The notes: generated from the letters alone by a model not told the origin. A DNA stretch of 64,000 bases from Acidimicrobiia bacterium (GCA_035544575.1 DATKEC010000044.1:2851-66850), one strand, 5' to 3'; counted from the first letter of the stretch, positions 29,376-49,844 are shown. Translations and numbers: made by a program.

Positions 29376-29677
29376 ATCGGCTCCCGCGTGGAATCGATGA
29401 TCGCCTGCAGCACTTCGAGATGCTCCGTGAGGGCCCGGCGCCCCGCTCTCGTGGCGAGGACCCATGTCCGGCTGCGGCCATGGGAGCGCTTCTCGATCTC
29501 GACGAAACCCGCTTCGGAGAGAACCTGGAGATGCCGGTTCAGGTTGCCGTCCGTGACGTCGAGCCTGTCCCGCAGGTAGGTGAATTCGACGAGATCGGCC
29601 TCCGAGAGGACGGCGAGAATCCCGAGCCGCACCCGCTGATGGACGACCTCGTCGAGATCAGAGGTGGGATGGCTCAC
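29372..29677 (-). CDS. Winged-helix transcriptional regulator (MarR-like HTH_34 type)
   Basis: LDEVVHQRVRLGILAVL..VEFTYLRDRLDVTDGNLNRHLQVLSEAGFV. Overlaps both neighbouring genes by 4 nt. Confidence 0.9.
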   Translation of the reverse strand: MSHPTSDLDEVVHQRVRLGILAVLSEADLVEFTYLRDRLDVTDGNLNRHLQVLSEAGFVEIEKRSHGRSRTWVLATRAGRRALTEHLEVLQAIIDSTREPI

Positions 29678-37725: not shown

Positions 37726-38277
37726 TCATGTACGCCGCAACAGCCTCTTCACCCAAGCGATCAGGGATTCCAGGAACAGTGTGAAGCCTTTGACGTCGGC
37801 CGCCCTGACCTCTGCCGCTTCCTCAGGGGTCGCGGCGGCCAACTTGGCCTCGACACAGCTGACGAAGTCGCCGATGAGCCGGTTGGACATCTCGCTGATG
37901 AGACCCGTGCGGCCAAACTGGGCCGCGGCGCCGGACAACGTGACATCGGCGTCGATCTGGACCTTGGTCCCTCCGTCCGCCTCCTCGAGTCGGTACTGAA
38001 CCTTCACCTGGCCCCGGCTCCCGCCTCGGCGGTCTGCACCCTTGCCGTCGATCGTGCCCGAACGGCTCGACTCGTCGGGACTCACCGTGGCGTCGCCTTC
38101 GAAGTTGGCGGCCATCGGGCCCAGCTTCACCGAAACCTTGCCTGCGTAGCTCCCGTCGCCTCGATCCTCGGTGAGCTCGGCACCGGGGAGGCACTCCGCC
38201 ACAGACGGAACATCCTGGAAGAACGCCCAGACGGTGCTCACGGGACTGGCGACGGTGAATTCGTTCTCTATCTTCAT
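37726..38277 (-). CDS. coxG: CoxG/SRPBCC family protein
   Basis: MKIENEFTV..VWAFFQDVPSVAECLPGA, YAGKVSVKLGPM, GAAAQFGRTGLI. Confidence 0.88.
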   Translation of the reverse strand: MKIENEFTVASPVSTVWAFFQDVPSVAECLPGAELTEDRGDGSYAGKVSVKLGPMAANFEGDATVSPDESSRSGTIDGKGADRRGGSRGQVKVQYRLEEADGGTKVQIDADVTLSGAAAQFGRTGLISEMSNRLIGDFVSCVEAKLAAATPEEAAEVRAADVKGFTLFLESLIAWVKRLLRRT

Positions 38278-38323
38278 GGATGATCCTTCGCTGGCCTTCG
38301 TGCGGCCGAGAGTAGACGCCCCC

Positions 38324-39376
38324 TCACGAGCGGCGCAGGGGCTCGGGCCCCTTCCGGGTTCGCAGCGAACCGCCTTCTCGGCCCCGGATCACGGCGAGAA
38401 TCTCGGCCATGACGGACCAGGCGATCTCGATCGGTCCCTCCGCCCCGATGTCGAGACCAGCCGGCCCGTGAATCTTCGCGAGATCGGCCTCGTGCACTGG
38501 GACTCCACGGCGATCGAGATCGGAGAACATCCGCTCCAGCCGCTCGCCAGGACCGAGCGCCCCGATGTAGGCGACATCGGTCTGCAGAAGAACGGCGAGC
38601 GCATCGAGATCCCGGAGATAGTTGTGCGACATGAGTACGACTGCGGTCTTGGAGTCCGGTCTGACCGCCCGTGCGAGATCGGCCGGCTCGGCGTGGATCA
38701 GGTCGTGGGCATCGGGAAAGCGCTCCGCCGTGAGAAACTGACGCCGGTCGTCGACCACCGCCGTGCGAAACCCCAGCATCGCTCCTTGTGCCACCACGGG
38801 AGCGGCGTCGTGGCCGGCTCCGAAGACCACGAGCCGGGGAGGAGCCCCGACGACCTCGAAGAGGTGACGAACGCCCTCGATCGTCTCGGCACGGTGCCGG
38901 CCCGTTTCGATCGCGGTCAGCGCGGCTGCCGTCACCGCAGACGAGTCGGAGTCGTTGGCGGTGACGATCCGCCGTCCGCCCGTGTCCGGAACGGGGTGCA
39001 CGACGCAGTAGGCCTCAGCCGAGGCATGCGCCATGGAATCGACCAGCCGCGCGGCGGAGCCGGCAGGCTCGACCAGAAGCTCGGTCGCTCCGTTGCACCC
39101 GACTCCCCAACCCCAAATCGCTTCGTCGTCGGCGGTCAGGTCGAACTCCACCTGCTCGGCCACCCCGGTGGCGATCACCCGCGCGGCAACGTCCCGAAGC
39201 TCGGTGTCGAGACAACCGCCTGACACGGTTCCGACAGACGTTCCGTCCACCCCCACCAGTTGACGCGCCGCCAGGCCCCGATAGGTCGAACCGCGTACGC
39301 CGACGACCGTGGCGAGAGCGAAGGGAGTCGCGGCCGTGGACCAGGCGCGAACAGCATCGAGAACCGGGTCGTTCAT
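38324..39376 (-). CDS. xdhC: XdhC/CoxI family molybdoenzyme maturation factor
   Basis: LATVVGVRGSTYR, GTVSGGCLD, LGCNG-like GVGCNG, FGAGHDA, YIGALG, GPAGLDIGAEGPIEIA. Confidence 0.92.
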   Translation of the reverse strand: MNDPVLDAVRAWSTAATPFALATVVGVRGSTYRGLAARQLVGVDGTSVGTVSGGCLDTELRDVAARVIATGVAEQVEFDLTADDEAIWGWGVGCNGATELLVEPAGSAARLVDSMAHASAEAYCVVHPVPDTGGRRIVTANDSDSSAVTAAALTAIETGRHRAETIEGVRHLFEVVGAPPRLVVFGAGHDAAPVVAQGAMLGFRTAVVDDRRQFLTAERFPDAHDLIHAEPADLARAVRPDSKTAVVLMSHNYLRDLDALAVLLQTDVAYIGALGPGERLERMFSDLDRRGVPVHEADLAKIHGPAGLDIGAEGPIEIAWSVMAEILAVIRGREGGSLRTRKGPEPLRRS

Positions 39377-39401
39377 CGCCCGCACCCTACCGGTGGGCGA
39401 G

Positions 39402-39875
39402 TCAATGCTCCGTGTGACCGGCGAGGAGGTCGAGGGCGTGCGGGATCACGTCCAGGATGGCGGCGAGGTTCTCGGTGGCGCCCTTCGGCGAACCCGGGAG
39501 GTTGACGAACAGTGTGCTGCCCGCCGATCCGACGACACCCCGGGACAGCGCCGCCATCGGCGTCTTGGCGAAGCCCTCGGTGAGCATCAACATCGCCAGC
39601 CCGGGCGCCTGCCGCTCGACCACCTGCATCGTCGCCTCGGGGGTGACATCACGGGGCCCGAAGCCGGTGCCCCCGGTTGTGAGAACGAGCCCCACCTCGT
39701 CGATGAGGCCGCGAAGTGTGAGGGCGATCACGCCAATCTCGTCTGGGACGGACCTGCGATGGCTGACCTCGAATCCTGCGCGCTCGAGGGCCTCGGCCAA
39801 CACCGCGCCCGAGGAGTCTTGCCTCGTCCCCGCATCGACACCGTCGCTGATCGTGACGACAGCCGCAGTCCGCAT
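39402..39875 (-). CDS. MogA/MoaB molybdopterin adenylyltransferase family
   Basis: VTISD, DSSG, TTGGTGFGPRDVTPEAT, LSRG, NLPGSPKG. Confidence 0.92.
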   Translation of the reverse strand: MRTAAVVTISDGVDAGTRQDSSGAVLAEALERAGFEVSHRRSVPDEIGVIALTLRGLIDEVGLVLTTGGTGFGPRDVTPEATMQVVERQAPGLAMLMLTEGFAKTPMAALSRGVVGSAGSTLFVNLPGSPKGATENLAAILDVIPHALDLLAGHTEH

Positions 39876-40741
39876 CAGGGCCGGAAGGACCACTGGAAGA
39901 GGTCGTCCCACGGAGGGATGGCGAGCCCAGGCTCCAAACCGAACCTGGCCACGAGAAAGACGATGAAGAACCCGACGACGAGGCCCCAGGACAGCGTTCG
40001 CTCTTCGGCGAGCTGAGGCGCGAGAAAGTGCTTCGTCTGTGGCGCAGCCAACAACGTGACGACGATGAACAGACCGAGGAACGGCAGGGAGGCGAGAAAT
40101 CCGGTTCCTTGATCGGGGACGAAGAACGGGACAGCGAGCAACGGTCCGACGATGGCCGGGATCATGGCGATCGAAGCGACATAGCGGAAGCGCTCCGCCG
40201 GGGTGTTCACTTCGCTCAGGTGCCGGCTGAACCCCAGGAACGCGGGAGCGGCGGCGAGGGCGATCAGCACCAGACCGAGGCCGCCGGCGGTGGCGATGAT
40301 CACGTCGAGGCCGTCGGGGAGGTCGATCGTCGACAGCGCGCGGGCCATGTTCGAGGTTTCCGAGAACGGGGCGGTGAGCACATCCATGAAACCGGCCCGG
40401 AAGCAGAACAGGATCGTCCACAGCACGGTCAGCTTGCCGACCGAGCGGTCCTTGGCGCCGGGGTAGATCAAGAGGAAGAACACTCCTGCGGCGATCGACG
40501 CGATCGGACCCCCCAGGTAGACGATGTCGCTCGTGCCAGGCCCGTCGGCTCGGAAGTAGGCGACCACATTCGTCAGCACGGGCTCGCGATCGGCAAAGGC
40601 CCCCCAGATGGCGATTCCGAACTGCTCGATGACCCTGGCGAACACGACGCCGAGGGCGGCGGCGATGATCGAGTTGGCGAAGAAGCCCCACGCCGTCCGG
40701 ATGACGGTGCTGCGACGGTCCTCGGTGATGTTCTCTGTCAC
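39875..40741 (-). CDS. Hypothetical multi-TM membrane protein
   Basis: ~7 TM; GTG start with AGGGGG RBS; stop overlaps the mogA-like start. Confidence 0.8.
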   Translation of the reverse strand: MTENITEDRRSTVIRTAWGFFANSIIAAALGVVFARVIEQFGIAIWGAFADREPVLTNVVAYFRADGPGTSDIVYLGGPIASIAAGVFFLLIYPGAKDRSVGKLTVLWTILFCFRAGFMDVLTAPFSETSNMARALSTIDLPDGLDVIIATAGGLGLVLIALAAAPAFLGFSRHLSEVNTPAERFRYVASIAMIPAIVGPLLAVPFFVPDQGTGFLASLPFLGLFIVVTLLAAPQTKHFLAPQLAEERTLSWGLVVGFFIVFLVARFGLEPGLAIPPWDDLFQWSFRP

Positions 40742-41022: not shown

Positions 41023-42093
41023 TCACATGCCGGCGGGTACGTGGATCTTGGCGTGGTCCAAGCGTGGGAGCACCATCTCGGCGAAACGCTCGGCTTCCTC
41101 GATGTGGGTGTAACCACTGAGAATGAATGCCGTCACCCCGGCGGCGGTGTAGGCCTCGATCTTCTCGACGACCTGATCGGGATTTCCGACGATGGCTGCA
41201 CCCGCGCCGGAACGAGCCTTTCCGATACCCGTCCACAGATTCGGCTCGGCGTAGCCGGACTCATCGGCGCTCTCCCGCAAGGCAGCCTGACGCTGGACGC
41301 CGACGGAGGCGGCGTCGAGGCTCTTGCCGCGGATCGCCGCGCCCGTCTCGGCGTCGAGTCTCGAAATCAGTCGATCCGCGGCTGCCTTGGCCTCGGCCTC
41401 GGACTCGCGGACGATCACATGGCTGCGCAGACCGATCAGCAAGTCGCGCCCGTGTTCGGCCGCCCGATCCTGCATCTCCCGGACGGTTGCCCCGACCGCG
41501 GCGACCGTGTCCGGCCACGTGAGGAACACATCCGCCTCCCGAGCGGCCACGTCTTTGGCGTCCGGGCTGAACCCGCCGAAGTAGAACGGCGGGCACTTCC
41601 CCGAGACCGTGCCAATGCGGGCCGGAGCCAGGCTCAGATCGACGAACTCGCCGTGAAAGTCGACGGACTCACCGTCGAGCAATGCTCTCAACACCTGCAT
41701 CCATTCGATCGTCCGCTGGTAGCGCGGGGCGGACTCGAGCTGTTGGCCGGGAATGTCCGAAGAGATGATGTTGATGGTGAGCCGGCCGTCGGCCATCTGG
41801 TCGATCGAGGCCATCTGCTTGGCGAGCTGGGGCAGCCAGGTCTCGCCCATCCGAACCGCCACGAGAAGGTTGATCCGGTCGGTGTGTGTGGCGATGGCGG
41901 AGGCAAAGGTGGTGGTGTCGACTCCAAGCTCGTAACCACTCGGCAGCAAGACGTTGTCGAAGCCGAGGCGGTCTGCCGTCTGGACGATGTCGCGGCAATG
42001 GCTCCAGGAGCTGGCCAGCTCCGGATCGGGCACACCGAGGAACTCGTAGTCGTCGTCGCACAGCGCGCCGAACCAGGAGATCTCCATCGTCAT
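41023..42093 (-). CDS. smoC: LLM-class flavin monooxygenase, sulfoquinovose monooxygenase SmoC-like
   Basis: EISWFGALCDDDYEFLGVPD, SSWSHC, INIISSD, RYQR, YFGG, EPNLWTGIGKARSGAGAAIVG, FILSGY. Matches my recollection of Agrobacterium SmoC (Atu3279); not aligned computationally. Confidence 0.75.
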   Translation of the reverse strand: MTMEISWFGALCDDDYEFLGVPDPELASSWSHCRDIVQTADRLGFDNVLLPSGYELGVDTTTFASAIATHTDRINLLVAVRMGETWLPQLAKQMASIDQMADGRLTINIISSDIPGQQLESAPRYQRTIEWMQVLRALLDGESVDFHGEFVDLSLAPARIGTVSGKCPPFYFGGFSPDAKDVAAREADVFLTWPDTVAAVGATVREMQDRAAEHGRDLLIGLRSHVIVRESEAEAKAAADRLISRLDAETGAAIRGKSLDAASVGVQRQAALRESADESGYAEPNLWTGIGKARSGAGAAIVGNPDQVVEKIEAYTAAGVTAFILSGYTHIEEAERFAEMVLPRLDHAKIHVPAGM

Positions 42094-42158
42094 CTGCGCA
42101 TCCTTTCTCTCTGGTGTCGATCTTCGTGTGGGGCCGATTCTGGTGGCGGCGGTCGAGC

Positions 42159-43058
42159 CTACGGAAGCGCCTGGCCCTCGGAGGCCTGGATCAGGTCGTA
42201 GACATCTCCACGTTCGAGGCTCACTGCCAGAGCTTTCACCGAGGCCGCCAACCGTTCGGGGCTCTGCGTGCCGATGATCGCCACCGGCTTCGACGGATGC
42301 GAGAGCACGAAGGCCAGGGCGATCGAGGCTCGGTCCACGCCTTCGCGGCCGGCGAGTCGATCGAGGGCTATCGACAGCTCGGTGCGAATGCCCCCGCCGG
42401 TGACGATCCCGCCGCCGCCCAGCGGCGACCACGCCAGCGGGACCAGCCCGAGGCGCATCGCCTGATCGAGGGTCCCATCGCGTTGCGGTGCCAGGTGCGA
42501 GACCGAATACTCGGGCTGGATCGAGACGAGCCGGTGGCGGAGGTGGGCGGCCAGCGCCTCGACCTGGGCCGGCGTGTGATTCGAGACGCCGACGGCCCGC
42601 GCCTTCCCGGCATCGATGAACTCGTCAAGCGTCGCCGCCACATCGGCCGGGTGGCTGTACATGTCAGGTCGATGGATCTGATAGAGATCGATCCGATCCG
42701 TGCGGAGCCGCCGCAACGAGTCGTCCAGGGCCTTGCGCAGGTACGGCCCCGACGAGTCGTACGGGACGGGTGGAGCGATCCCGCCCTTGGTGGCCAAAAG
42801 CATCCGGTCCCGCAGATCGGGTCGGGACGCGATCACCTCGCCGAGCAGCTCTTCGGCCTGACCGAAGGCCGTCCCACCCCAGTCGAGCCCGTAGACGTCA
42901 GCGGTGTCGATGAGGTTCATCCCCAGATCGAGTGCGGTCTCCACCAGTTCGGTGGCGAAAGCCAGGTCGTGACCCACGAACCGCCATTGCCCGAAGCCGA
43001 GCGGTCCGACCTCTCCGAGGTCGCCGAGAACGCGCGGGGTGTCGATTTCGAGGGTCAC
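42159..43058 (-). CDS. smoB: Aldo/keto reductase, SmoB-like 6-oxo-glucose reductase
   Basis: DTADVYG, LATKGG, YQIHRPD, GVSN, WSPLGGG. AKR family is certain; the SmoB role is inferred from adjacency to smoC. Confidence 0.65.
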   Translation of the reverse strand: MTLEIDTPRVLGDLGEVGPLGFGQWRFVGHDLAFATELVETALDLGMNLIDTADVYGLDWGGTAFGQAEELLGEVIASRPDLRDRMLLATKGGIAPPVPYDSSGPYLRKALDDSLRRLRTDRIDLYQIHRPDMYSHPADVAATLDEFIDAGKARAVGVSNHTPAQVEALAAHLRHRLVSIQPEYSVSHLAPQRDGTLDQAMRLGLVPLAWSPLGGGGIVTGGGIRTELSIALDRLAGREGVDRASIALAFVLSHPSKPVAIIGTQSPERLAASVKALAVSLERGDVYDLIQASEGQALP

Positions 43059-43119
43059 GATGGCCTGCCGGCGGTCACCGGCGTGACCCTAGTGTGAGGG
43101 CCGAACGGAGGTCCCAGCC

Positions 43120-44205
43120 ATGGCCGAGCCTGCGACGGTGTTCCGGTACGGAGTGATTGGTACCGGGATGATGGGTGTCGAGCACATCGAGAACATCAAC
43201 CACATCGACGGCGCCGTCGTGACCGCGTACGCCGATCCGCACGAGCAGAGCCGGGCCGCGGCCCACACGCTCACCGACGGAGCTGTCGGGTTCGAGGACT
43301 ACCACGATCTTCTCGAGTCGGACCTCGTCGACGCCGTGGTGATCGCCACACCCAACTTCACCCATGCCGAAGTTCTCGAAGCCGCCCTGGCGACTCCACT
43401 CCACATCCTCGTCGAGAAGCCGCTGTGCACGACGGTGGCCGACTGCCGCCGCGTCATCGAACTGGCCCGCGATCGGCCGGCAGTGACCTGGGTGGGCCTC
43501 GAGTACCGGTACATGCCGCCGGTGAACCGCCTCATCGCCGAAGTCGAAGCCGGCACCGTCGGCGACCTGCGCATGGTGGCGATTCGCGAGCATCGATTCC
43601 CGTTCTTGCGCAAAGTGGGCGACTGGAACCGCTTCAACCAGAACACCGGTGGGACGATGGTCGAAAAGTGCTGTCACTTCTTCGACCTGATGAACGAGAT
43701 CATCGATGGGACCCCGACCCGGGTGGTGGCGTCCGGGGGCCAGGATGTCAATCATCTCGACGAGGTCTACGACGGTGCGGTTCCCGACATCCTCGACAAC
43801 GCCTATGTGATCGTCGAGTACGACACCGGCGTGCGGGCGATCCTCGATCTGTGCATGTTCGCCGAGGCGACCAAGAACCAGGAGGAGGTCGTCGCAGTCG
43901 GCACGCACGGCAAGGTCGAGGCATTCCTGCCGGAGAAGATCGTCCGCATCGGCCGCCGCGGCCGCCACTTCGTGGGCGAGGTGGAAGAACACTTCGTCGA
44001 CGACGACCGCATCACCTACGAAGGCCACCATCATGGTTCCAGCCAACTCGAACATCTCGACTTCATCCAGACGTGCCGGCGGGGCGGGACACCGGAGATC
44101 ACGCTCGCCGACGGGATGCTGGCCGTCGCCATGGGGATCGCCGCCCAAACCAGCATCGACCGCGGCACCTGGGTCGACGTCGCCGACCCCCTGCGCGTTT
44201 CTTAG
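43120..44205 (+). CDS. Gfo/Idh/MocA protein, candidate NAD+-dependent sulfoquinovosidase (SqgA/GH188-like)
   Basis: GVIGTGMMG, ATPNFTH, VEKP, GLEYRYMP, IREHRFPFLRKVGDWNRF, GGTMVEKCCHFFDL, HHGS. Divergent from smoB. The fold is certain; the SQase role is inference. Confidence 0.7.
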   Translation: MAEPATVFRYGVIGTGMMGVEHIENINHIDGAVVTAYADPHEQSRAAAHTLTDGAVGFEDYHDLLESDLVDAVVIATPNFTHAEVLEAALATPLHILVEKPLCTTVADCRRVIELARDRPAVTWVGLEYRYMPPVNRLIAEVEAGTVGDLRMVAIREHRFPFLRKVGDWNRFNQNTGGTMVEKCCHFFDLMNEIIDGTPTRVVASGGQDVNHLDEVYDGAVPDILDNAYVIVEYDTGVRAILDLCMFAEATKNQEEVVAVGTHGKVEAFLPEKIVRIGRRGRHFVGEVEEHFVDDDRITYEGHHHGSSQLEHLDFIQTCRRGGTPEITLADGMLAVAMGIAAQTSIDRGTWVDVADPLRVS

Positions 44206-44212
44206 CGAATCA

Positions 44213-44235
44213 GCGACACAAAATCGTGTCGTTTC
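44213..44235 (+). terminator. Possible intrinsic terminator after the Gfo/Idh/MocA gene
   Basis: GCGACAC-aaaatc-GTGTCGT followed by TTC. Confidence 0.35.
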
Positions 44236-44265
44236 GCGTGGCAAAACGGGTGGAGGCGAGCGGAG

Positions 44266-45243
44266 CTAACCCTTGACCGACCCGGCCAGGACCCCTCGCA
44301 CGAAGTAGCGCTGGAGGGCGAAGAAGACCACCAGCGGCAACGCGGTCGAGATGAATGCCGCCGCGCTGAGCAAGTGTTCTCGTTGCCCGAACTCCCCGGC
44401 GATCGACGCCAGGGCCACGGTGATCGGCAAGGCATCCGTGCCGGAACCGATCATCGTCAGGGCGATCAGGTAGTCATTCCACGTCCACAGGAACTGGAAG
44501 ATCGTGAACGCCGCCAGCACGGGCGTCGACAAGGGCAGGACCAGCTTGTAGAAGATCTTGAAGTGGTCCGCACCGTCGATGAACGCCGACTCGAACACGT
44601 CCTTGGGCAACCCGCTGATGTAGTTGTGGAGCAAGAAGATGGCGAACGGCAGCGCAAAACCGGTGTGGGTGAGCCACACCGCCGTCACCGTCCCCGCCAG
44701 ATCCATGTCGGGAAACAGCCGCATCGTCTTGTCGAAGAACGGCAGCGTCCACTGCCCGCCGGTTGCATACAGCCGCAGCAGCGGAATCAGTGACGTCTGC
44801 AGCGGAATCGCCAGCAACGACACGGTGATGATGAACAGCCACTCGCGTCCCCTGAACTCGATCCATGCGAATGCGTACGCGGCGAAGGCGGCGATGGCAA
44901 TCGGGATGATCGTGGCTGGGATCACGATGGCCAGGGAGTTCATCAAATTGTCGAACAGCGCGTTCCCGCCGAACAGCACTTCGTCGTAGTTGTCGAGCGA
45001 GGGTGCTCCCAGATCGTTGGCGGAGTCCCCGAAGATCGCCCAGAACGGCGTTGCCTGCTGGGCGTCGCGAGTCCGGAAGGAGTTCACGAACAGGCCGACG
45101 CTGGGAACCGACCAGATGATGACGAGCAGCCACAGGATCCAGGTCGGGGTGGCCGACAGCAGACGGTAGATGCCGCTGCCGAGCGCCCCGCCGGCTTTGG
45201 CCCGGACCGGCTGGCTCGTGGAGACCTCGGTGCGCGATGCCAT
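44266..45243 (-). CDS. Carbohydrate ABC permease (AglG/GgtD-like)
   Basis: AAYAFAW..F.GR, LPKDVFESAFIDGA (EAA loop), FQFLWTWNDYL, RYFVRGVLAGSVKG. Confidence 0.93.
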   Translation of the reverse strand: MASRTEVSTSQPVRAKAGGALGSGIYRLLSATPTWILWLLVIIWSVPSVGLFVNSFRTRDAQQATPFWAIFGDSANDLGAPSLDNYDEVLFGGNALFDNLMNSLAIVIPATIIPIAIAAFAAYAFAWIEFRGREWLFIITVSLLAIPLQTSLIPLLRLYATGGQWTLPFFDKTMRLFPDMDLAGTVTAVWLTHTGFALPFAIFLLHNYISGLPKDVFESAFIDGADHFKIFYKLVLPLSTPVLAAFTIFQFLWTWNDYLIALTMIGSGTDALPITVALASIAGEFGQREHLLSAAAFISTALPLVVFFALQRYFVRGVLAGSVKG

Positions 45244-47180
45244 CAGACCGCCTCCCTCTGACGTCGGATGTTGTAGTACATGACGGGAACCACCGAGAAG
45301 AAGAGGATCATGGCGAGGGCGGCTCCCATGCCGATGTTCAGCTCGGTGAACGCCTTCTGCCACATCTCATTGGCCAGCACGTTCGTTCCGAACTGACCGT
45401 TGGTCATGACCTTCGGGATGTCGAAGACCTTCATGACCAGGACGATCAGCGTCGTGGTCACGACCCCGATCGTCGGGGCGATCTGCGGGATCGTCACTCT
45501 CCAGAACGTCTCGCTCTCCGTGGCGCCGTCGACCTTCGATGCTTCGACGAGGTCAGTCGGCACGCCCTTGATGGCCGCAGAGAAGACGACCATGGCGAAT
45601 CCGGTCTGGATCCAGATCAGCACGATGATCAGCCAGAAGGTGTTCCACGGCTGCTCCTGGAGGAAGATCACGGGTTCACCCACGACGCCGCTGGCGAGCG
45701 GAGCGACCTCGCCGGTGACGGGGTCACGAAGCACCCCGCCGATCCCGGACCCGACGAACCGCCACATCAACCAGAGGAACGGCAGGGTCGTCACCAGCGA
45801 GCCGATGGCGACGGAGTTGGCCCCCGCCCGCCGCGCCCGGTACGCGAGAAATCCGAGGCCGACCACCACGAGCGCGAACACGACGATCAGGAACGTCCGC
45901 AGTGGGGAGCCCCCGGTCGAGATCTCCCCCAGACCGACCCAGAGATAGTTGAGAACACCCGTCTGGTCCCGGCCCACCGGCCGGGCCAGGTACATGAACC
46001 TCCAGATGATGCCGGCACCCACGAACGAGATGGCCATCGGCATGAAGATCAGCGACTTGGCGACGGACTCCCCACGCGCCCGGTCGGCCAGCACAGCGAT
46101 GGCCAGGCCCAGTCCGGCGGCGATGACGGTGACCGAGAACACCCACCAGAGGTTGTTCCAGATCACGCCGCGCAGGGTCGTGAACACCGCAAAGGCGATG
46201 AAGATGCTCCCCAGCGCCAGGGGACCCGCCGACAGGCCGGACCAGTCGGTCGGTGCCCCGATCGCCCTTCCTTTCTGGCGGGCGAAGAGGTAGCCGCCGA
46301 TCGCCAGTGCTGCGCCCCACACGAACAAGCCCGTCGTGAAGATGTTCGTCCAAGAGGAGACGTTGAAGATGTCGGGAGTGCCGAACACGGTCTGGTAGTT
46401 GTCGAGGCCCACGAAGTCCTGGCCCCGGGTGCCGTACACGCTGAGGATCAGCGTCTGGATGGTGGGGATGACGAGCGTCGCCCCGATGAAGAGAAGTGCA
46501 GGAGCCACGAAGATGACGGCGCGGGAACGGTGTTGGAGACGCTCGCGTCCTGCGAGGGTGCTCGGTTCGTTGAGTCCGAGCCGGACCCCGACTGCGACAC
46601 CGAGTATCGCCAGGCCCATGAGCACCTCGGCCTGGGTCCCGGTGCCGAGCGTCGGTGCGAGGAAGGCGCCGAAGAACCAGCCGATCGCTGCCCCGGTCAC
46701 CGCCCCTTTGACGAGATCCCGCCCCCGGAGCGCGGCAAGACCGGCACCCACCGCCGCCACTCCCACCGGCCATCCGATCAACGGAACGATGCGCATGGCC
46801 GGCCAGGCGAGCGGCCGGATGAATGCGGCGATCACGAGACCGATCACCAGCCCGCCGACGGCTCCGACGATCAGCCGACGGCGACGGCCCTCCGTGGTGG
46901 CCAACACCGAGCCCCACGCCCCGAAGAGGACGGCCAGGATGGCCACGAGGAGCAGCGAGAGATCGGTGGCGTCTTCGGCCGGGCTCATGCGCCACTGCAT
47001 GATCCGGTTGCCGATGAGGATCGCGCTGAGGACGACACCGATGACTGCACCGGTGATCGCCGCGAACCGCGACCACTTCACGCGAGCCTGATCGAACCAC
47101 TTGTTGGCGCCGATGAAGAGCGCGGCGCTCCCACCAATCGCGACCACCACGCCGACGAGCGTGCTGACGATCTTCTCCAT
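45243..47180 (-). CDS. Carbohydrate ABC permease (AglF/GgtC-like) with large extra membrane domains
   Basis: FVGLDNY, NNLWW, KSLIFMPMAISFVGAGIIW, IKGVPTDLVEASKVDGA, TNVLANEM. 645 aa. Confidence 0.9.
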   Translation of the reverse strand: MEKIVSTLVGVVVAIGGSAALFIGANKWFDQARVKWSRFAAITGAVIGVVLSAILIGNRIMQWRMSPAEDATDLSLLLVAILAVLFGAWGSVLATTEGRRRRLIVGAVGGLVIGLVIAAFIRPLAWPAMRIVPLIGWPVGVAAVGAGLAALRGRDLVKGAVTGAAIGWFFGAFLAPTLGTGTQAEVLMGLAILGVAVGVRLGLNEPSTLAGRERLQHRSRAVIFVAPALLFIGATLVIPTIQTLILSVYGTRGQDFVGLDNYQTVFGTPDIFNVSSWTNIFTTGLFVWGAALAIGGYLFARQKGRAIGAPTDWSGLSAGPLALGSIFIAFAVFTTLRGVIWNNLWWVFSVTVIAAGLGLAIAVLADRARGESVAKSLIFMPMAISFVGAGIIWRFMYLARPVGRDQTGVLNYLWVGLGEISTGGSPLRTFLIVVFALVVVGLGFLAYRARRAGANSVAIGSLVTTLPFLWLMWRFVGSGIGGVLRDPVTGEVAPLASGVVGEPVIFLQEQPWNTFWLIIVLIWIQTGFAMVVFSAAIKGVPTDLVEASKVDGATESETFWRVTIPQIAPTIGVVTTTLIVLVMKVFDIPKVMTNGQFGTNVLANEMWQKAFTELNIGMGAALAMILFFSVVPVMYYNIRRQREAV

Positions 47181-47222
47181 GAGCCGGAGCTCACCTCCTC
47201 TTCGAACTCGCCTGCGTACGAA

Positions 47223-47254
47223 AGTGGGGCACCGGGATGGCCCGGTGCCCCACT
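47223..47254 (-). terminator. Strong stem-loop between binding-protein gene and permease
   Basis: 14-bp perfect stem AGTGGGGCACCGGG/CCCGGTGCCCCACT, 4-nt loop, followed by TT on the minus strand. Confidence 0.7.
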
Positions 47255-47299
47255 GTATGCCTGGGGGTTTTCACCCCGTCGTCAGAATCGGGGTCCGGA

Positions 47300-48676
47300 T
47301 CAGCCTGCCGGCCACTCCGCTTCGACCTGGTCGAGGGCTTCCTGAACCGTCTTGGCGCCGGTCACCACGTCGGTTGCCGCCGTCCAGAACGTTCCCGAAC
47401 CGACCGCAGCCGGCATCAGGTCGGATGCATCGAAGCGTGCCGTCGTCGCACCCGACAGGATCTCGATCAGTCCCCGCTCGAACGGCGAGTACATGTCGAG
47501 GTTCTGTCCCTGGACACCGGAGAGGAAACCGCCACCCTGGGCGGGGACTCGGGCGTTCGGGTAGTCGGGCGAGCCGAGGAACTCCATCACTGCCCACACT
47601 TCCGGCGCGTCACGGAATGCGACGGCGTTGGTCCCGGCGAAGAGCACCGGGCGCTCGTCGGCGGACTGAGCCGGGAAGTAGAAGGCATTGATGTCGCCGT
47701 CGGGACCGACCTCGGTGCCTTCCGGCAGGAAGGCGGCGAAGAAGTTCGCCTGACGGTGCATCTCACAGTCGCCGTTGGCGAGGGGAGCGCCGTTGTCACC
47801 GAAGAACGTCGAGGCGATGGAGCCGCCGGAGGCATAGACCGCACCCGGCGTGTTCCAGAGGTCGAGGATCTGCTGCCAGATCCCGACGTGCGTCTCGTTG
47901 TTGAACGGGACCTCGTGGGCGACCCACTGGTCGTAGAAGTCGCCGTCCGCGAAGCGCAGCGTCATGTCCTCGACCCAGTCAGTGAACGGCCAGCCGGTCG
48001 CAGGACCGGACTCGATGCCCACGCACAGCGGCGTCAGCCCGTCGGCGATCATCGTGTCGACGAGAGCCAGGAACTCGTCGAAGGTCACCGGGATCTCGTA
48101 ACCGTTCTCGGCGAACCGCGACGGCGAGTACCAGATGAGCGACTTCAGGTCGTTCTTGGTCGGAACCGCGTACTGCACGCCATCGACGCTGCCGTACTGC
48201 AGGTAGCCGGCCTCCCAGACCGCTTCGACGGACGCCGTGACGTCATCGGGCAGCGGCAGGATGAAGCCGAGATCTGCGAAGTCGGCGATCTTGCCGGGCT
48301 GGGGGATGATCGCGATGTCCGGCGGATTGCCACCGGACGCCTGAGCGTTGATCTGGTCCGAGAAGTCGCGCGCACCGGTGTACACGATCTCGATACCGGT
48401 CTCGGCCGCAAACGAGTCGAGTGCGGTCTGGATGGCATCGCCCTCGGCGTCGGTCTCGGGGCCGAAGAGCGTCACCCTCGTACCGGAGAGATCAGCGTCG
48501 TCCATCGGTTCTTCGTCATCATCGGGGGCCGCGGTGGTGTCCGAACCAGCCGCAGTCGTGGTCGTTTCATCAGGGGCGCTGGTGGTATCGGTCGTCCCGG
48601 TGTCACCGGAGCAGGCCGCGAGCACCAGCATCAATGCCGTCAGCAGGGCCAACAGCCCTCGCTTCCGTTGCATCAT
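47300..48676 (-). CDS. ABC substrate-binding lipoprotein, AglE/GgtB alpha-glucoside family
   Basis: LAAC lipobox; GNPPDIAIIPQPG, KSLIWYSP, CVGIESGPATGWPFTDWVED, FDASDLMPAAVGSGTFW. GGGAGG RBS. Confidence 0.92.
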   Translation of the reverse strand: MMQRKRGLLALLTALMLVLAACSGDTGTTDTTSAPDETTTTAAGSDTTAAPDDDEEPMDDADLSGTRVTLFGPETDAEGDAIQTALDSFAAETGIEIVYTGARDFSDQINAQASGGNPPDIAIIPQPGKIADFADLGFILPLPDDVTASVEAVWEAGYLQYGSVDGVQYAVPTKNDLKSLIWYSPSRFAENGYEIPVTFDEFLALVDTMIADGLTPLCVGIESGPATGWPFTDWVEDMTLRFADGDFYDQWVAHEVPFNNETHVGIWQQILDLWNTPGAVYASGGSIASTFFGDNGAPLANGDCEMHRQANFFAAFLPEGTEVGPDGDINAFYFPAQSADERPVLFAGTNAVAFRDAPEVWAVMEFLGSPDYPNARVPAQGGGFLSGVQGQNLDMYSPFERGLIEILSGATTARFDASDLMPAAVGSGTFWTAATDVVTGAKTVQEALDQVEAEWPAG

Positions 48677-48754
48677 CTGTTTCCTCCCGTCATCGTTGTT
48701 CGCGTCGGAAACCGTTGCGGTTCCGACGGACGCCCACCGGGCCTCTCTCAACCC

Positions 48755-48768
48755 TGTAAGCGGTTTCA
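48755..48768. promoter_or_regulatory. LacI-family operator upstream of the ABC operon
   Basis: TGTAAGCGGTTTCA fits the LacI/cre-type TGWAANCGNTNWCA palindrome. Confidence 0.7.
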
Positions 48769-48807
48769 TCCTAGGAACGGGGGGAGTGTGACGGCAACTG
48801 ACTCTGG

Positions 48808-49821
48808 TCACTGCGACGGTGCGCTCGTCGAGGAGCGCTCGACGAGCTCCGTCGGCACCGAGACCAGCCGCCGGTCACACGCTTCACCCTCCAACCGTTC
48901 GATCATCAAACGTGCTGCGATCGCACCCAGTTCCGCCGCGTCCTGGCGGACCGTCGTCAGCCCCACCGTGAAGGCCCAGTCGACGTCGTCGAAACCGACC
49001 ACCGACATCTCTCCGGGAACCGTGAGGCCGGCCTCTTCGCAGGCGCGCATCGCACCCATCGCCATTTCGTCGGACATCGCAAACACCGCAGTGGGACGCT
49101 GGCGCAAGTCGAGCAGCGCCTGCATCGCCTCATAGCCGCCCAGCGCCGAGAAGTCACCGACCCGCTCGTGATTGGGATCGAAGCGCACTCCGGCCTCGTC
49201 GAGTGCCCGAAGAAAGCCCGTCCGGCGTTCCGGCGGACTCGAGGAGGGGAAAGCGGCGGGGCCCCCTGAGATGAGACCGAGCCTGGTGTGGCCCAACGAC
49301 AACAGATGCCGGGTGGCGGACATGGCTCCTGCAACGTTGTCGATGACGACGGAGTCGATGGTCGGACAGTCCGCCCCCACCATGACCCACGGCAGACGGT
49401 GCTCGGCCAGCAGTAGGCGCTCGGTGACGGTGGGGACCAGGTCGACGATGATCGCACCATCGGCTCTCTTCGAGACTCCGCCCCCGACGTCGCCGAGCGC
49501 ACGCGTGCGGACGAGTTCGTCGGCGATCAGCAGAAGCGTGAGGTCGTATCCGCGGTTCGTCAGCACCGCCTCGATGCCGGACACGACCTGGCCGGTGTAC
49601 CAGATCGGAATGGCGACGACGCCGACCGCCACCGTTCGTGTGCGCCCGGCTGCGAGCCGGGCGGCATTCGGGTCGGGTCGGTAATTCAGCATCGCCGCCA
49701 CCGACACCACCCGGTCCCGTGTCTTCGGCGAGACGTTGGGCAACCCCCGGAGCGCCCGGGAGACCGTGGCCACGGACACACCGGCGCGTTCGGCAACCTT
49801 TTCGATCGTCACCCGGGCCAT
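48808..49821 (-). CDS. LacI-family transcriptional regulator
   Basis: VTIEKVAERAGVSVATVSRAL, YRPDPNAARL, DNVAG, PTAVFAMSDEMAMG, SVVGFDD, LTTVRQ. Confidence 0.96.
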   Translation of the reverse strand: MARVTIEKVAERAGVSVATVSRALRGLPNVSPKTRDRVVSVAAMLNYRPDPNAARLAAGRTRTVAVGVVAIPIWYTGQVVSGIEAVLTNRGYDLTLLLIADELVRTRALGDVGGGVSKRADGAIIVDLVPTVTERLLLAEHRLPWVMVGADCPTIDSVVIDNVAGAMSATRHLLSLGHTRLGLISGGPAAFPSSSPPERRTGFLRALDEAGVRFDPNHERVGDFSALGGYEAMQALLDLRQRPTAVFAMSDEMAMGAMRACEEAGLTVPGEMSVVGFDDVDWAFTVGLTTVRQDAAELGAIAARLMIERLEGEACDRRLVSVPTELVERSSTSAPSQ

Positions 49822-49828
49822 CCGGCAA

Positions 49829-49844
49829 GTGAAAACGCTTTCAC
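49829..49844. promoter_or_regulatory. LacI autoregulatory operator overlapping its promoter
   Basis: GTGAAAACGCTTTCAC (14/16 palindromic), lying within TTGACG-N17-TTCACT-N6-ATG. Confidence 0.72.

What the first reader, a model, noticed from the sequence alone, without database searches (positions are those of the whole stretch)
41023..44205. Probable sulfoquinovose monooxygenase (sulfo-SMO) pathway in an Acidimicrobiia-like actinobacterium
Seen: an LLM monooxygenase co-oriented with an AKR, plus a divergent Gfo/Idh/MocA gene with REHRFPFLxKV and EKCCHFFDL motifs. Established: Agrobacterium SmoC desulfonates SQ to 6-oxo-glucose plus sulfite, SmoB (AKR) reduces it to glucose, and NAD+-dependent SQases (SqgA, GH188) have the Gfo/Idh/MocA fold and replace GH31 SQase in some clusters. 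The pathway is known mainly from Alphaproteobacteria. Inference: this lineage fully catabolises SQ/SQ-glycosides, making it an overlooked player in the organosulfur cycle. The family assignments rest on my recollection of the sequences.
Basis: partly seen in the sequence, partly recalled or inferred. Interest (0 to 1): 0.8.

Follow-up and report, generated by a model that had tools for sequence, protein, structure and literature searches.

The report
Sulfoquinovose desulfonation gene cluster in Acidimicrobiia
This actinobacterial (Acidimicrobiia) stretch encodes what is very probably the known sulfoquinovose-monooxygenase route for eating the plant and algal sulfosugar sulfoquinovose; it is a sound annotation of a known pathway in a lineage where it is little discussed, not a new kind of system.

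Summary
Three intact genes lie at 41023-44205.

- **Monooxygenase (LLM).** Its best solved relatives are the sulfoquinovose (SQ) monooxygenases SmoC (E 4e-108, 50% identity). MsuD and SsuD score far lower (E 1e-71 and 1e-68, 38-39%).
- **Gfo/Idh/MocA protein.** Its best relatives are the three solved GH188 NAD+-dependent sulfoquinovosidases (E 1e-95 to 3e-99, 47-49%). All catalytic and sulfonate-binding residues are kept.
- **Aldo-keto reductase (AKR).** It is closest to SmoB, but only narrowly.

The unit extends to 49843. It adds a LacI-type regulator, a lipoprotein solute-binding protein and two ABC permeases. Consensus LacI operators sit before the regulator and the binding-protein gene.

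In 68 species-representative actinobacterial loci, the AKR lies next to the LLM in all 66 loci with enough flank. GH188 is adjacent in 40.

A Sphingomonadales sister cluster couples the same LLM-AKR pair to a GH31 sulfoquinovosidase. That is independent support for SQ as the substrate.

No flavin reductase or ABC ATPase is in the window.

Novelty is modest. GH188 lists already include Acidimicrobiia, a 2026 survey notes sulfo-SMO clusters in Actinomycetota, and IMG names a homologue "sulfoquinovose monooxygenase". No enzyme or organism of this class has been tested.

The parts
41023..42093 (-). SmoC/SquD-type FMNH2-dependent sulfoquinovose monooxygenase candidate (luciferase-like monooxygenase, 356 aa).
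   Evidence: PF00296. Best solved relatives are 7olf (RoSmoC, E 4.2e-108) and 7oh2 (AtSmoC, E 8.8e-105), against MsuD at 1.4e-71 and SsuD at 8e-68. Identity is 50% and 49% to SmoC and 39% and 38% to MsuD and SsuD. RoSmoC residues Y136, S189, W206, R236, H238, Y341 and H343 correspond to window Y125, S176, W193, R223, H225, Y328 and H330, all conserved. It scores below the NCBIfam SsuD equivalog cut-off (281 against 518 bits).
42159..43058 (-). SmoB/SquF-type aldo-keto reductase, the candidate 6-oxo-glucose (6-dehydroglucose) reductase (299 aa).
   Evidence: PF00248. Best solved relatives are AtSmoB 7bby and 7bbz at E 2e-39, but YdhF-type AKRs reach 1e-35 to 1e-36. D71, Y76, K104, H151, R152, W232, T284 and R289 are conserved. 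K120 lies in a 9-aa insert that this protein lacks. It is adjacent to the LLM in 66 of 66 actinobacterial loci.
43120..44205 (+). GH188 (SqgA-type) NAD+-dependent sulfoquinovosidase candidate (361 aa). No signal peptide, so it is cytoplasmic.
   Evidence: PF01408, PF02894 and PF22725. Best solved relatives are 8zn9 (RdSqgA, E 3e-99), 8qc2 (FlSqgA, E 1.5e-95) and 8qc3 (ArSqgA, E 2.2e-95). The next hit is at 7.6e-26. ArSqgA K107, Y136, R166, L170, K172, E189, H193 and H321 correspond to window K100, Y129, R159, L163, K165, E182, H186 and H304, all conserved. The same residues are kept in all 46 homologues examined, except that L170 is Q in 8 of them.
44266..45243 (-). ABC permease, MalG/UgpE-like, CUT1 type (325 aa). 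Its ATG overlaps the stop codon of the upstream permease gene (TGATG).
   Evidence: PF00528. Start position. Homologues are present in 46 of 68 actinobacterial loci.
45243..47180 (-). ABC permease, MalF/UgpA-like C-terminal half with a long N-terminal membrane extension (645 aa, about 14 hydrophobic segments).
   Evidence: PF00528 matches residues 462-639 only. Hydropathy. The same length is seen in the syntenic locus L001. The Ilumatobacter coccineus protein is 775 aa.
47223..47254 (.). Perfect 14-nt stem with a 4-nt loop, lying between the binding-protein gene and the first permease gene.
   Evidence: Its function has not been tested. It may set the ratio of binding protein to permease transcripts or stabilise the mRNA.
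47300..48676 (-). Solute-binding lipoprotein (458 aa, lipobox LAAC). Proposed SQ/SQGro receptor of the importer.
   Evidence: PF01547. The signal and lipobox are read directly from the sequence. It has no detectable relation to the SmoF structures. Its best solved relative is AcbH at E 2.8e-13. Homologues are present in 40 of 68 actinobacterial loci.
48755..48768 (.). LacI-family operator TGTAAGCGGTTTCA, an exact match to TGnAAnCGnTTnCA, 79-92 nt upstream of the binding-protein start codon.
   Evidence: Exact sites lie at the same relative position in 23 related loci.
48808..49821 (-). LacI-family transcriptional regulator (337 aa).
   Evidence: PF00356, PF13377 and PF00532. Homologues lie in the same position in the syntenic loci L001 and L006 and in many others.
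49830..49843 (.). LacI-family operator TGAAAACGCTTTCA (exact consensus), 9-22 nt upstream of the regulator's start codon. Probable autoregulation.
   Evidence: Exact sites lie upstream of the LacI gene in 11 related loci.

Best explanation
The stretch 41023-49843 is a sulfo-SMO (also called sulfo-ASMO) type sulfoquinovose utilisation locus of an Acidimicrobiia bacterium.

**Proposed mechanism**
1. A lipoprotein solute-binding protein and two CUT1-type permeases import sulfoquinovosyl glycerol and/or free SQ. The ATPase is encoded elsewhere. This step is inferred.
2. The cytoplasmic GH188 enzyme removes the aglycone by the NAD+-dependent route: transient oxidation at C3, elimination, then hydration. 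This is inferred from family membership and complete conservation of the active site.
3. The SmoC-type monooxygenase uses FMNH2 and O2 to cleave the C6-S bond, giving sulfite and 6-oxo-glucose. The FMNH2 comes from a flavin reductase encoded outside the cluster. This is inferred from homology and genomic context.
4. The AKR reduces 6-oxo-glucose to glucose with NAD(P)H, and the glucose enters glycolysis. This is inferred mainly from the invariant AKR-LLM pairing.
5. The LacI-type repressor binds TGnAAnCGnTTnCA operators in front of its own gene and the transporter genes. This is inferred from conserved site positions.

Gene content, homology, residue conservation and synteny are shown here. 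All activities are inferred.
For: **Homology**
- The LLM scores 365 and 354 bits against SmoC, and 245 and 232 bits against MsuD and SsuD.
- It shares with SmoC a 6-residue deletion and a 1-residue insertion relative to MsuD and SsuD.
- In NJ bootstraps, SmoC plus this clade separates from MsuD and SsuD in 100 of 100 replicates. The clade that joins the Acidimicrobiia with the Sphingomonadales and Caulobacteraceae sequences has 94% support.
- The GH188 protein has E 1e-95 to 3e-99 against the three solved SqgA enzymes, with all eight catalytic or sulfonate-contact residues kept.
- Algal SqgA homologues that are only 31-47% identical to RdSqgA and keep these residues are active sulfoquinovosidases (PMC12780224).

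**Genomic context**
- The AKR and LLM are adjacent in 66 of 66 actinobacterial loci. GH188 is adjacent in 40 of 68. The transporter is present in 36 of 43 loci that have at least 7 kb of upstream sequence.
- In Sphingorhabdus (L083) an LLM 63% identical to the window's sits in a TonB receptor-GH31-LacI-AKR-LLM cluster. That GH31 matches the Agrobacterium sulfoquinovosidase SmoI at E 6e-254.
- So the same AKR-LLM module is joined to either of two unrelated sulfoquinovosidase families.

**Regulation**
- Exact operators lie upstream of the LacI and binding-protein genes in the window.
- There are 57 exact sites in 1.43 Mb of related loci. By my own base-composition estimate, about 0.4 would be expected by chance.
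- Their positions are: 23 upstream of the binding-protein gene, 11 upstream of LacI, and 7 in the AKR/GH188 spacer. Several of the remaining 14 lie at positions consistent with being upstream of the MalK-type ATPase gene.

**Missing flavin reductase has a precedent**
- The biochemically characterised Novosphingobium aromaticivorans cluster also lacks one (PMC9594981).

**Existing annotation**
- IMG names a homologue from the Ilumatobacter coccineus protein cluster 'sulfoquinovose monooxygenase'.
Against: - No flavin reductase domain was found in any window ORF scanned. No MalK-type ATPase is in the window, although 37 related loci carry one downstream of the LLM.
- The AKR is only 34-36% identical to AtSmoB and barely outscores YdhF-type AKRs. 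The glucose-contact residue Lys120 of SmoB falls in an insert that this protein lacks.
- The binding protein has no detectable similarity to the SQGro-binding protein SmoF.
- In 16 related loci the same transporter and regulator sit next to a GH13 alpha-glucosidase-like gene. The transporter's substrate could therefore be an ordinary alpha-glucoside.
- No operator-like site, even with 3 mismatches, lies in the window's AKR/GH188 spacer.
- The residues that make SmoC specific for SQ are unknown, because no SQ complex has been solved (PMC8795539). Specificity therefore cannot be read from the sequence.
- No Acidimicrobiia enzyme or strain has been tested on SQ.
Confidence: 0.8

Rival explanations
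1. The enzymes act on a related but different substrate, such as another 6-sulfonated or otherwise C6-modified hexose or glycoside. Alternatively, the ABC transporter and LacI regulator belong to an ordinary alpha-glucoside uptake system that merely neighbours the AKR-LLM pair. In either case SQ or SQGro would not be the main physiological substrate, or not the transported one.
For: The binding protein is unrelated to SmoF. GH13 alpha-glucosidase-like genes flank the same transporter and regulator in 16 loci. The GH13 enzyme in a Marinovum sulfo-SMO cluster is a plain alpha-glucosidase with no SQase activity (bioRxiv 10.1101/2023.03.31.535182). The determinants of SQ specificity in SmoC are unknown. 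The AKR lacks the insert that carries SmoB Lys120.
Against: The complete sulfonate-binding triad (R166, L170 backbone, K172) and the sugar-hydroxyl contacts of SqgA are conserved. The same AKR-LLM clade is linked to a SmoI-orthologous GH31 SQase in Sphingomonadales. In some loci, operators of a single type precede the transporter, ATPase and AKR/GH188 genes, which points to one regulon.
Confidence: 0.12
2. The LLM is a general sulfur-scavenging alkanesulfonate monooxygenase of the SsuD or MsuD type. On this view the AKR and the Gfo/Idh/MocA gene are unrelated sugar or inositol oxidoreductases that happen to lie nearby.
For: NCBIfam's best models for the LLM are the SsuD models, at E 1e-83. Public annotations call homologues 'alkanesulfonate monooxygenase'. 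The best NCBIfam model for the Gfo/Idh/MocA protein is inositol 2-dehydrogenase, at E 1e-35.
Against: Both NCBIfam scores are far below the curated cut-offs: 281 against 518 bits for SsuD, and 123 against 355 bits for IolG. SmoC and SqgA are much better matches. No ssuABC or ssuE genes are nearby. AKR-LLM adjacency is invariant across 66 loci. The locus has sugar-type CUT1 transporter genes and a LacI regulator.
Confidence: 0.05
3. The locus is a non-functional remnant, because it lacks a flavin reductase and an ABC ATPase.
For: Neither gene is found anywhere in the 64-kb window.
Against: All seven genes are intact and full length. They are conserved at 75-93% identity in the syntenic loci L001 and L006, and third-codon-position GC shows coding bias. 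The characterised N. aromaticivorans cluster also lacks a reductase. From established knowledge, actinobacterial CUT1 importers commonly share an unlinked MsiK-type ATPase.
Confidence: 0.03

Closest known systems
Sulfo-SMO pathway of Agrobacterium tumefaciens C58 (smoABCDEFGHI, Atu3277-3285; Sharma et al. 2022, PMC8795539)
   Same: The enzymatic logic matches: SQ glycoside import by an ABC system, cytoplasmic glycoside cleavage, FMNH2- and O2-dependent desulfonation by an SsuD-like LLM, and AKR reduction of 6-oxo-glucose to glucose. The LLM is 49-50% identical to SmoC and keeps all named FMN and sulfonate site residues. The AKR keeps the catalytic tetrad and Arg152 of SmoB.
   Different: There is no SmoA flavin reductase. 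The SQase is GH188, not GH31 (SmoI). The binding protein is not detectably related to SmoF. No ATPase gene is in the locus. The AKR is only 34-36% identical to SmoB and lacks the insert carrying Lys120. The host is a Gram-positive actinobacterium, and the binding protein is a lipoprotein.
Sulfo-ASMO cluster of Novosphingobium aromaticivorans (SquD/SquF; Liu et al. 2021, as reviewed in PMC9594981 and PMC12890257) and the related Sphingomonadales loci found here (L080, L083, L084)
   Same: This is the closest architecture found: LacI-AKR-LLM with no flavin reductase in the cluster. The LLM is 63-65% identical and the AKR 47-51% identical to the Sphingomonadales proteins. These AKRs share the absence of the SmoB insert. 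One 94%-supported clade contains both groups.
   Different: L080, L083 and L084 use a GH31 SQase, and L083 also carries a TonB-dependent receptor gene. The window has GH188 and a CUT1 ABC importer instead. I could not obtain the N. aromaticivorans sequences themselves. Their membership of this clade is assumed from taxonomy and was not tested.
GH188 NAD+-dependent sulfoquinovosidases (ArSqgA, FlSqgA: Kaur et al. 2023, PMC10755693; RdSqgA: PMC12780224)
   Same: The two-domain Gfo/Idh/MocA architecture is the same, with 47-49% identity. All catalytic residues (K, Y, H, H, E) and sulfonate-binding residues (R, L, K) have identical spacing. The gene sits in an SQ-catabolic cluster that lacks GH31.
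   Different: No functional difference is visible in the sequence. At 49% identity to RdSqgA it falls below the 54% cut-off that PMC12780224 used to count sqgA in the Tara Oceans data.
SsuD/MsuD alkanesulfonate monooxygenases
   Same: The fold is the same, and the FMN phosphate and sulfonate residues are shared. Both depend on a separate flavin reductase.
   Different: Identity is only 38-39%. The LLM scores below the curated equivalog cut-off. It has two SmoC-type indels. The genomic context is sugar catabolism, not the ssu or msu sulfur-starvation operons.

Membership tests
SmoC/SquD sulfoquinovose monooxygenase | Luciferase-like TIM-barrel monooxygenase of the SsuD lineage | tested here: met
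   PF00296 at E 2.8e-55. SsuD-type NCBIfam models are the best of the LLM models.
SmoC/SquD sulfoquinovose monooxygenase | Closer to characterised SmoC than to SsuD, MsuD or SfnG | tested here: met
   365 and 354 bits to RoSmoC and AtSmoC, against 245 (MsuD), 232 (SsuD) and 114 (SfnG). Shared indels. 100 of 100 bootstrap replicates.
SmoC/SquD sulfoquinovose monooxygenase | FMN phosphate gate (Y136, S189) and sulfonate site (W206, R236, H238, Y341, H343) of RoSmoC | tested here: met
   All seven are conserved. These residues are shared with MsuD, so they do not establish SQ specificity.
SmoC/SquD sulfoquinovose monooxygenase | Clustered with a sulfoquinovosidase and a 6-oxo-glucose reductase | tested here: met
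   GH188 and the AKR are adjacent in the window. The arrangement is conserved across loci.
SmoC/SquD sulfoquinovose monooxygenase | Partner flavin reductase (SmoA/SsuE) in the cluster | tested here: not met
   None is found in the window or in L083. This feature is not strictly defining, because N. aromaticivorans also lacks one.
SmoC/SquD sulfoquinovose monooxygenase | SQ-specific, FMNH2- and O2-dependent sulfite release | not testable with these tools
   Requires an enzyme assay.
GH188 (SqgA) NAD+-dependent sulfoquinovosidase | Gfo/Idh/MocA Rossmann domain plus alpha/beta dimerisation domain, with sequence similarity to SqgA | tested here: met
   PF01408 and PF02894. E 3e-99 to 2e-95 against 8zn9, 8qc2 and 8qc3. 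The next hit is at 8e-26.
GH188 (SqgA) NAD+-dependent sulfoquinovosidase | Catalytic residues K107, Y136, H193, H321 and E189, and the sulfonate triad R166, L170 and K172 (ArSqgA numbering) | tested here: met
   These correspond to window K100, Y129, H186, H304, E182, R159, L163 and K165. They are conserved in all 46 homologues, except that L170 is Q in 8.
GH188 (SqgA) NAD+-dependent sulfoquinovosidase | NAD+-dependent cleavage of alpha- and beta-SQ glycosides, with deuterium incorporation at C2 | not testable with these tools
   Requires an enzyme assay.
SmoB/SquF 6-oxo-glucose reductase (AKR) | AKR fold with the D-Y-K-H catalytic tetrad | tested here: met
   PF00248. The residues matching SmoB D71, Y76, K104 and H151 are window D51, Y56, K91 and H129.
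SmoB/SquF 6-oxo-glucose reductase (AKR) | Glucose-contact residues Arg152 and Lys120 of SmoB | tested here: inconclusive
   Arg152 is conserved. Lys120 lies in a 9-residue insert that is absent here and in all Acidimicrobiia and Sphingomonadales cluster AKRs.
SmoB/SquF 6-oxo-glucose reductase (AKR) | Specifically closer to SmoB than to other AKRs | tested here: inconclusive
   SmoB is the best hit at 139 bits, but YdhF-type AKRs reach 125-129 bits. Identity to SmoB is 34-36%.
SmoB/SquF 6-oxo-glucose reductase (AKR) | Conserved pairing with the SQ monooxygenase gene | tested here: met
   66 of 66 actinobacterial loci and 9 of 10 proteobacterial loci.
SmoF-type SQGro-binding protein and SmoEGH importer | Sequence relationship of the binding protein to SmoF | tested here: not met
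   No SmoF chain appears among PDB hits at E <= 0.01. The best hit is AcbH at 2.8e-13. The importer is at most analogous to the Smo system, not orthologous.
SsuD alkanesulfonate monooxygenase (TIGR03565 equivalog) | Score above the curated equivalog cut-off | tested here: not met
   281 bits against a cut-off of 518 bits.

The most novel reading that the evidence does not exclude
Acidimicrobiia may form a large and so far uncounted guild of complete SQ mineralisers in water and soil. The lineages involved include marine MedAcidi-G1 and G2B, the freshwater and marine Ilumatobacteraceae, the sponge symbionts Ca. Poriferisodalis, and Ca. Microthrix. They would use a lineage-specific version of the sulfo-SMO pathway with three distinctive parts:
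- a binding-protein family unrelated to SmoF;
- an extended 14-segment permease;
- a LacI regulon with a TGnAAnCGnTTnCA operator.

Published ocean meta-omic budgets used identity cut-offs of 60% to Roseobacter SmoC and 54% to RdSqgA. Those cut-offs would have missed these organisms.
Probability: 0.3. Interest if true: 0.6.

Novelty: new member of a known kind. Interest (0 to 1): 0.38.

Why it matters
SQ is produced at roughly 10 Pg per year. Which organisms mineralise it completely to sulfite and sulfate matters for carbon and sulfur budgets.

Reviews up to January 2026 still assign the monooxygenase route to Alpha- and Betaproteobacteria. The AKR-LLM core occurs in at least 68 of the 80 best-matching species-representative genomes, nearly all labelled Acidimicrobiia or Actinomycetota. 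About 570 matches were found in total.

The window's GH188 is 49% identical to RdSqgA, below the 54% cut-off used in the Tara Oceans survey. Its LLM is about 50% identical to the Rhizobiales SmoC enzymes. It probably also falls below that survey's 60% cut-off to Roseobacter SmoC, though I could not compare it with that sequence directly.

If the proteins are active, abundant planktonic and symbiotic actinobacteria should be added to the list of SQ consumers. A cultured strain with the locus exists (Ilumatobacter coccineus YM16-304), so the idea can be tested directly.

The result is nonetheless an extension of a known pathway, not a new mechanism.

Tried and rejected
1. **SmoF-like binding protein.** The PDB sequence search found no SmoF relation. 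Orthology of the importer with SmoEFGH is rejected.
2. **Flavin reductase and ABC ATPase in the window.** Pfam scans covered essentially all ORFs with coding-like third-position GC. Neither was found. The only ABC ATPase (28434-29465) belongs to an ABC-2 exporter.
3. **Flavin reductase recurring near the cluster in related loci.** ORFs from 80 loci were clustered and representatives scanned against Pfam. This turned up a MalK-type ATPase (37 loci), GH13 (16 loci), MFS, Ada/AlkA/Ogt and GlpD, but no flavin-reductase family.
4. **Operator in the window's AKR/GH188 spacer.** None was found, even allowing 3 mismatches. Seven other loci do have one there.
5. **Inverted-repeat search of the intergenic regions.** It found only the hairpin at 47223-47254.
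6. **Direction of transfer between Acidimicrobiia and Sphingomonadales.** This is unresolved. Bootstraps gave 40% for Sphingomonadales nested within the actinobacterial sequences and 55% for actinobacterial monophyly.
7. **Context look-up for Ilumatobacter protein P0096.** It failed. The look-up succeeded with cluster member P0122.
8. **Liu et al. 2023 (PMC9938184).** The paper is not held.
9. **N. aromaticivorans SquD and SquF.** I did not fetch these sequences, so their placement in the clade is untested.

Full report
**1. What is there**

The flagged interval holds three intact genes.
- A luciferase-like monooxygenase (LLM) lies at 41023-42093 on the minus strand. It is 356 aa, starting at an ATG behind a GAAAGGA ribosome-binding site.
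- An aldo-keto reductase (AKR) lies at 42159-43058 on the minus strand. It is 299 aa and sits 65 nt upstream of the LLM.
- A Gfo/Idh/MocA oxidoreductase lies at 43120-44205 on the plus strand. It is 361 aa and is divergent from the AKR across 61 bp.

Pfam confirms the three folds. GC is even at about 0.66 across the window, and third-position GC marks these frames as coding.

On the far side of the Gfo/Idh/MocA gene, on the minus strand, lie four more genes.
- A LacI-family regulator lies at 48808-49821.
- A solute-binding lipoprotein with lipobox LAAC lies at 47300-48676.
- Two CUT1-type ABC permeases lie at 45243-47180 and 44266-45243. They are translationally coupled through TGATG.

**2. 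Family assignments**

*LLM.* The best solved relatives are the two SQ monooxygenases of the sulfo-SMO pathway. RoSmoC (7olf) scores E 4.2e-108 and 365 bits. AtSmoC (7oh2) scores E 8.8e-105.
- MsuD (1.4e-71), SsuD (about 1e-67) and SfnG (8e-32) are far behind.
- Identity is 50% and 49% to SmoC, against 39% and 38% to MsuD and SsuD.
- The protein shares two indels with SmoC that MsuD and SsuD lack: a six-residue deletion after the SSDIPG segment and a one-residue insertion in PSGYELG.
- All residues that Sharma et al. named for FMN phosphate and sulfonate binding are conserved. Those residues are common to MsuD, so they do not establish SQ specificity.
- The NCBIfam SsuD equivalog scores 281 bits against a cut-off of 518. 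The protein is therefore not an SsuD.

*Gfo/Idh/MocA protein.* The three best solved relatives are exactly the three GH188 NAD+-dependent sulfoquinovosidases.
- RdSqgA (8zn9) scores 3e-99, FlSqgA (8qc2) 1.5e-95 and ArSqgA (8qc3) 2.2e-95. The next hit scores 7.6e-26. One search confirms that 8zn9 is RdSqgA.
- I mapped the residues described by Kaur et al. through the printed alignment. K107, Y136, R166, L170, K172, E189, H193 and H321 of ArSqgA correspond to K100, Y129, R159, L163, K165, E182, H186 and H304 here. All are identical.
- PMC12780224 reports that algal homologues only 31-47% identical to RdSqgA, which keep these residues, are active sulfoquinovosidases. The window protein is 49% identical to RdSqgA.

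*AKR.* The best solved relative is SmoB (2e-39), but YdhF-type AKRs follow closely at 1e-35 to 1e-36.
- The catalytic tetrad, Arg152, Trp232 and the 2'-phosphate contacts Thr284 and Arg289 are kept.
- The glucose contact Lys120 lies in a nine-residue insert that this protein lacks.
- On sequence alone the assignment is weak. It rests on genomic context.

**3. Context in other genomes**

The nearest LLM homologues, at 72-97% identity, come from Acidimicrobiia MAGs and Ilumatobacter coccineus. A scan of one genome per GTDB species found about 570 relatives, of which the best 80 were kept.
- 68 of these carry Acidimicrobiia, Actinomycetota or unclassified labels. They include Ilumatobacteraceae, MedAcidi-G1 and G2B, Ca. 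Poriferisodalis and Ca. Microthrix.
- The rest are mostly Sphingomonadales and Caulobacteraceae, at 63-65% identity.

I ran tblastn with the window's proteins against these loci.
- The AKR lies directly next to the LLM in 66 of 66 actinobacterial loci with enough flank.
- GH188 is adjacent in 40 of 68. It is either divergent from the AKR, as in the window, or inserted between the AKR and the LLM.
- The transporter is present in 36 of 43 loci with at least 7 kb of upstream sequence.
- L001 and L006 are fully syntenic with the window.
- All 46 GH188 homologues keep the active-site residues. The one exception is L170, a backbone contact, which is Q in eight of them.

The most telling comparison is Sphingorhabdus profundilacus (L083). 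Its cluster reads TonB receptor-GH31-LacI-AKR-LLM. The GH31 matches the Agrobacterium sulfoquinovosidase (5ohy, 5ohs, 7ofx) at E 6e-254. L080 and L084 carry the same GH31. So one AKR-LLM clade is joined either to a GH31 or to a GH188 sulfoquinovosidase. These two enzyme families are unrelated and have only the substrate in common.

In NJ trees with 100 bootstraps:
- SmoC plus this clade separates from MsuD and SsuD in every replicate.
- The joint Acidimicrobiia and Sphingomonadales/Caulobacteraceae clade has 94% support, and it is sister to the Rhizobiales SmoC sequences.
- It is not resolved whether the proteobacterial sequences are nested among the actinobacterial ones (40% against 55%).

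**4. Regulation**

The generic LacI-family operator TGnAAnCGnTTnCA occurs exactly twice in the 64-kb window. One copy lies 79-92 nt upstream of the binding-protein gene (48755-48768). The other lies 9-22 nt upstream of the LacI gene (49830-49843).

From base composition I estimate about 0.02 exact matches by chance in the window. This is my own arithmetic, not a tool result.

The related loci hold 57 exact sites in 1.43 Mb, where I estimate about 0.4 by chance.
- 23 lie upstream of the binding-protein gene.
- 11 lie upstream of LacI.
- 7 lie in the AKR/GH188 spacer.
- Several of the remaining 14 lie at positions consistent with being upstream of a MalK-type ATPase gene.

This argues that the transporter, the ATPase and, at least in some species, the enzymes form one regulon. 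The window's own AKR/GH188 spacer has no such site, even with three mismatches.

**5. What is missing**

No flavin reductase domain was found in any scanned ORF of the window. None was found in L083 or among gene families recurring near the cluster. This has a precedent. The biochemically characterised N. aromaticivorans cluster also lacks one, and its SquF is likewise an AKR.

No MalK-type ATPase is in the window. In 37 related loci, and in Ilumatobacter coccineus, one lies just downstream of the LLM. Unlinked shared ATPases of the MsiK type are usual for actinobacterial CUT1 importers (established knowledge).

The binding protein is not detectably related to SmoF. In 16 loci a GH13 alpha-glucosidase-like gene neighbours the regulator. 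That recalls the Marinovum GH13, which has no SQase activity. The transporter's substrate is therefore the least secure part of the model.

**6. Mechanism proposed**

1. SQGro and/or SQ is imported by the binding protein and the two permeases.
2. The cytoplasmic GH188 enzyme cleaves the glycoside in an NAD+-dependent reaction.
3. The LLM carries out FMNH2- and O2-dependent C-S cleavage, giving sulfite and 6-oxo-glucose.
4. The AKR reduces 6-oxo-glucose to glucose.
5. The LacI-type regulator represses the genes until they are induced.

Homology, residue conservation, synteny and operator positions are shown here. Every activity, the source of FMNH2 and the fate of the sulfite are inferred.

**7. 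Comparison with the literature and novelty**

- Sharma et al. 2022 placed the pathway in Alpha- and Betaproteobacteria. A January 2026 review still says so.
- The GH188 family list in the supplement of Kaur et al. 2023 contains many Acidimicrobiia and Ilumatobacter entries. The string 'acidimicrobi' occurs 334 times.
- An ISME J 2026 survey states that sulfo-SMO clusters are frequent in Actinomycetota, at phylum level only.
- IMG names a member of the Ilumatobacter coccineus protein cluster 'sulfoquinovose monooxygenase'.
- No held paper mentions sulfoquinovose together with Ilumatobacter, Acidimicrobiales, Microtrichales, Actinomarinales, Poriferisodalis or MedAcidi. The single paper that pairs it with Acidimicrobiia is an unrelated soil-amendment study.
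- The Tara Oceans survey in PMC12780224 required 54% identity to RdSqgA and 60% to Roseobacter SmoC. The window's GH188 (49%) fails the first cut-off. Its LLM is about 50% identical to the Rhizobiales SmoC enzymes, so it probably fails the second. I could not compare it with the Roseobacter sequence directly.

**8. Verdict**

This is a new member of a known kind: a Novosphingobium-like sulfo-SMO core with a GH188 gateway enzyme and a lineage-specific importer and regulator, in Acidimicrobiia.

Interest is moderate. The mechanism is not new and the phylum-level occurrence has been noted. However, the breadth across Acidimicrobiia, the lack of any experimental test and the availability of a cultured carrier make it a worthwhile and easily tested lead.

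Noticed in passing
window 39875-40741 (-): A 288-aa protein with about 7 hydrophobic segments and no Pfam or NCBIfam match lies about 280 nt downstream of the LLM. It is conserved there at 86% identity in the syntenic loci L001, L002 and L006, and at 54-56% in L007, L008 and L011. Sulfite has to leave the cell or be oxidised, so a sulfite exporter is one possible role, but that is speculation.
   Followed up: partly
window 45243-47180 (-): The first ABC permease is 645 aa with about 14 hydrophobic segments. Pfam BPD_transp_1 matches only residues 462-639. The long N-terminal membrane extension is conserved (645 aa in L001, 775 aa in Ilumatobacter coccineus L086), which is unusual for a CUT1 permease.
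   Followed up: partly
window 43624-43637 (+): An operator-like site with one mismatch (TGGAACCGCTTCAA) lies inside the GH188 coding region. It could be a chance match or an internal LacI site.
   Followed up: no
window 37726-39890 (-): CoxG-like, XdhC-family and MogA-like (MoCF_biosynth) genes, all linked to molybdenum-cofactor enzyme maturation, lie just beyond the membrane protein. They are syntenic in L001 and L002. No molybdoenzyme, such as a sulfite dehydrogenase, was seen in the window.
   Followed up: no
L086 13326-13739 (-), Ilumatobacter coccineus AP012057.1: A 137-aa PNPOx_N (FMN-binding split-barrel) protein lies next to the MalK-type ATPase gene of the cultured strain's cluster. 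Its Pfam description places it among FMN-binding split-barrel proteins, a fold I recall it sharing with flavin reductases. It is a candidate worth testing as the missing FMNH2 supplier. No equivalent was found in the window.
   Followed up: no
L013 1605-3425, L029 502-2466 and 14 other loci: A GH13 alpha-amylase-family gene sits next to the LacI and transporter genes in 16 Acidimicrobiia loci, often ones that lack GH188. This parallels the Marinovum sulfo-SMO cluster, whose GH13 is an alpha-glucosidase without SQase activity.
   Followed up: partly
L029 13181-15022 (+) and 8 similar loci (Ca. Poriferisodalis and relatives): A GlpD-type glycerol-3-phosphate dehydrogenase gene (DAO plus DAO_C) lies about 2 kb downstream of the cluster in sponge-symbiont genomes. 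This would fit use of the glycerol released from sulfoquinovosyl glycerol.
   Followed up: no
L014 12790-13383 (+), L086 13764-14360 (+) and 17 other loci: A conserved protein of about 197 aa with no Pfam match recurs just beyond the MalK-type ATPase gene in 19 loci.
   Followed up: no
window 35560-37683 (+): A 707-aa protein combines an HD-GYP-type HD domain (HD_5) with C-terminal Big_9 and cadherin-like repeats. Joining a cyclic-nucleotide phosphodiesterase-type domain to extracellular-type repeats is unusual. It is conserved in L001 and L002.
   Followed up: no
window 12945-13784 (-) and 15507-21556 (+): Two large UvrD-helicase plus PD-(D/E)XK nuclease proteins (996 and 1050 aa, an AdnAB/AddAB-like pair) lie here, with a separate 279-aa PD-(D/E)XK nuclease gene nearby.
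   Followed up: no
window 62373-63998 (-): An ORF running off the end of the window carries an S-layer homology (SLH) domain.
   Followed up: no
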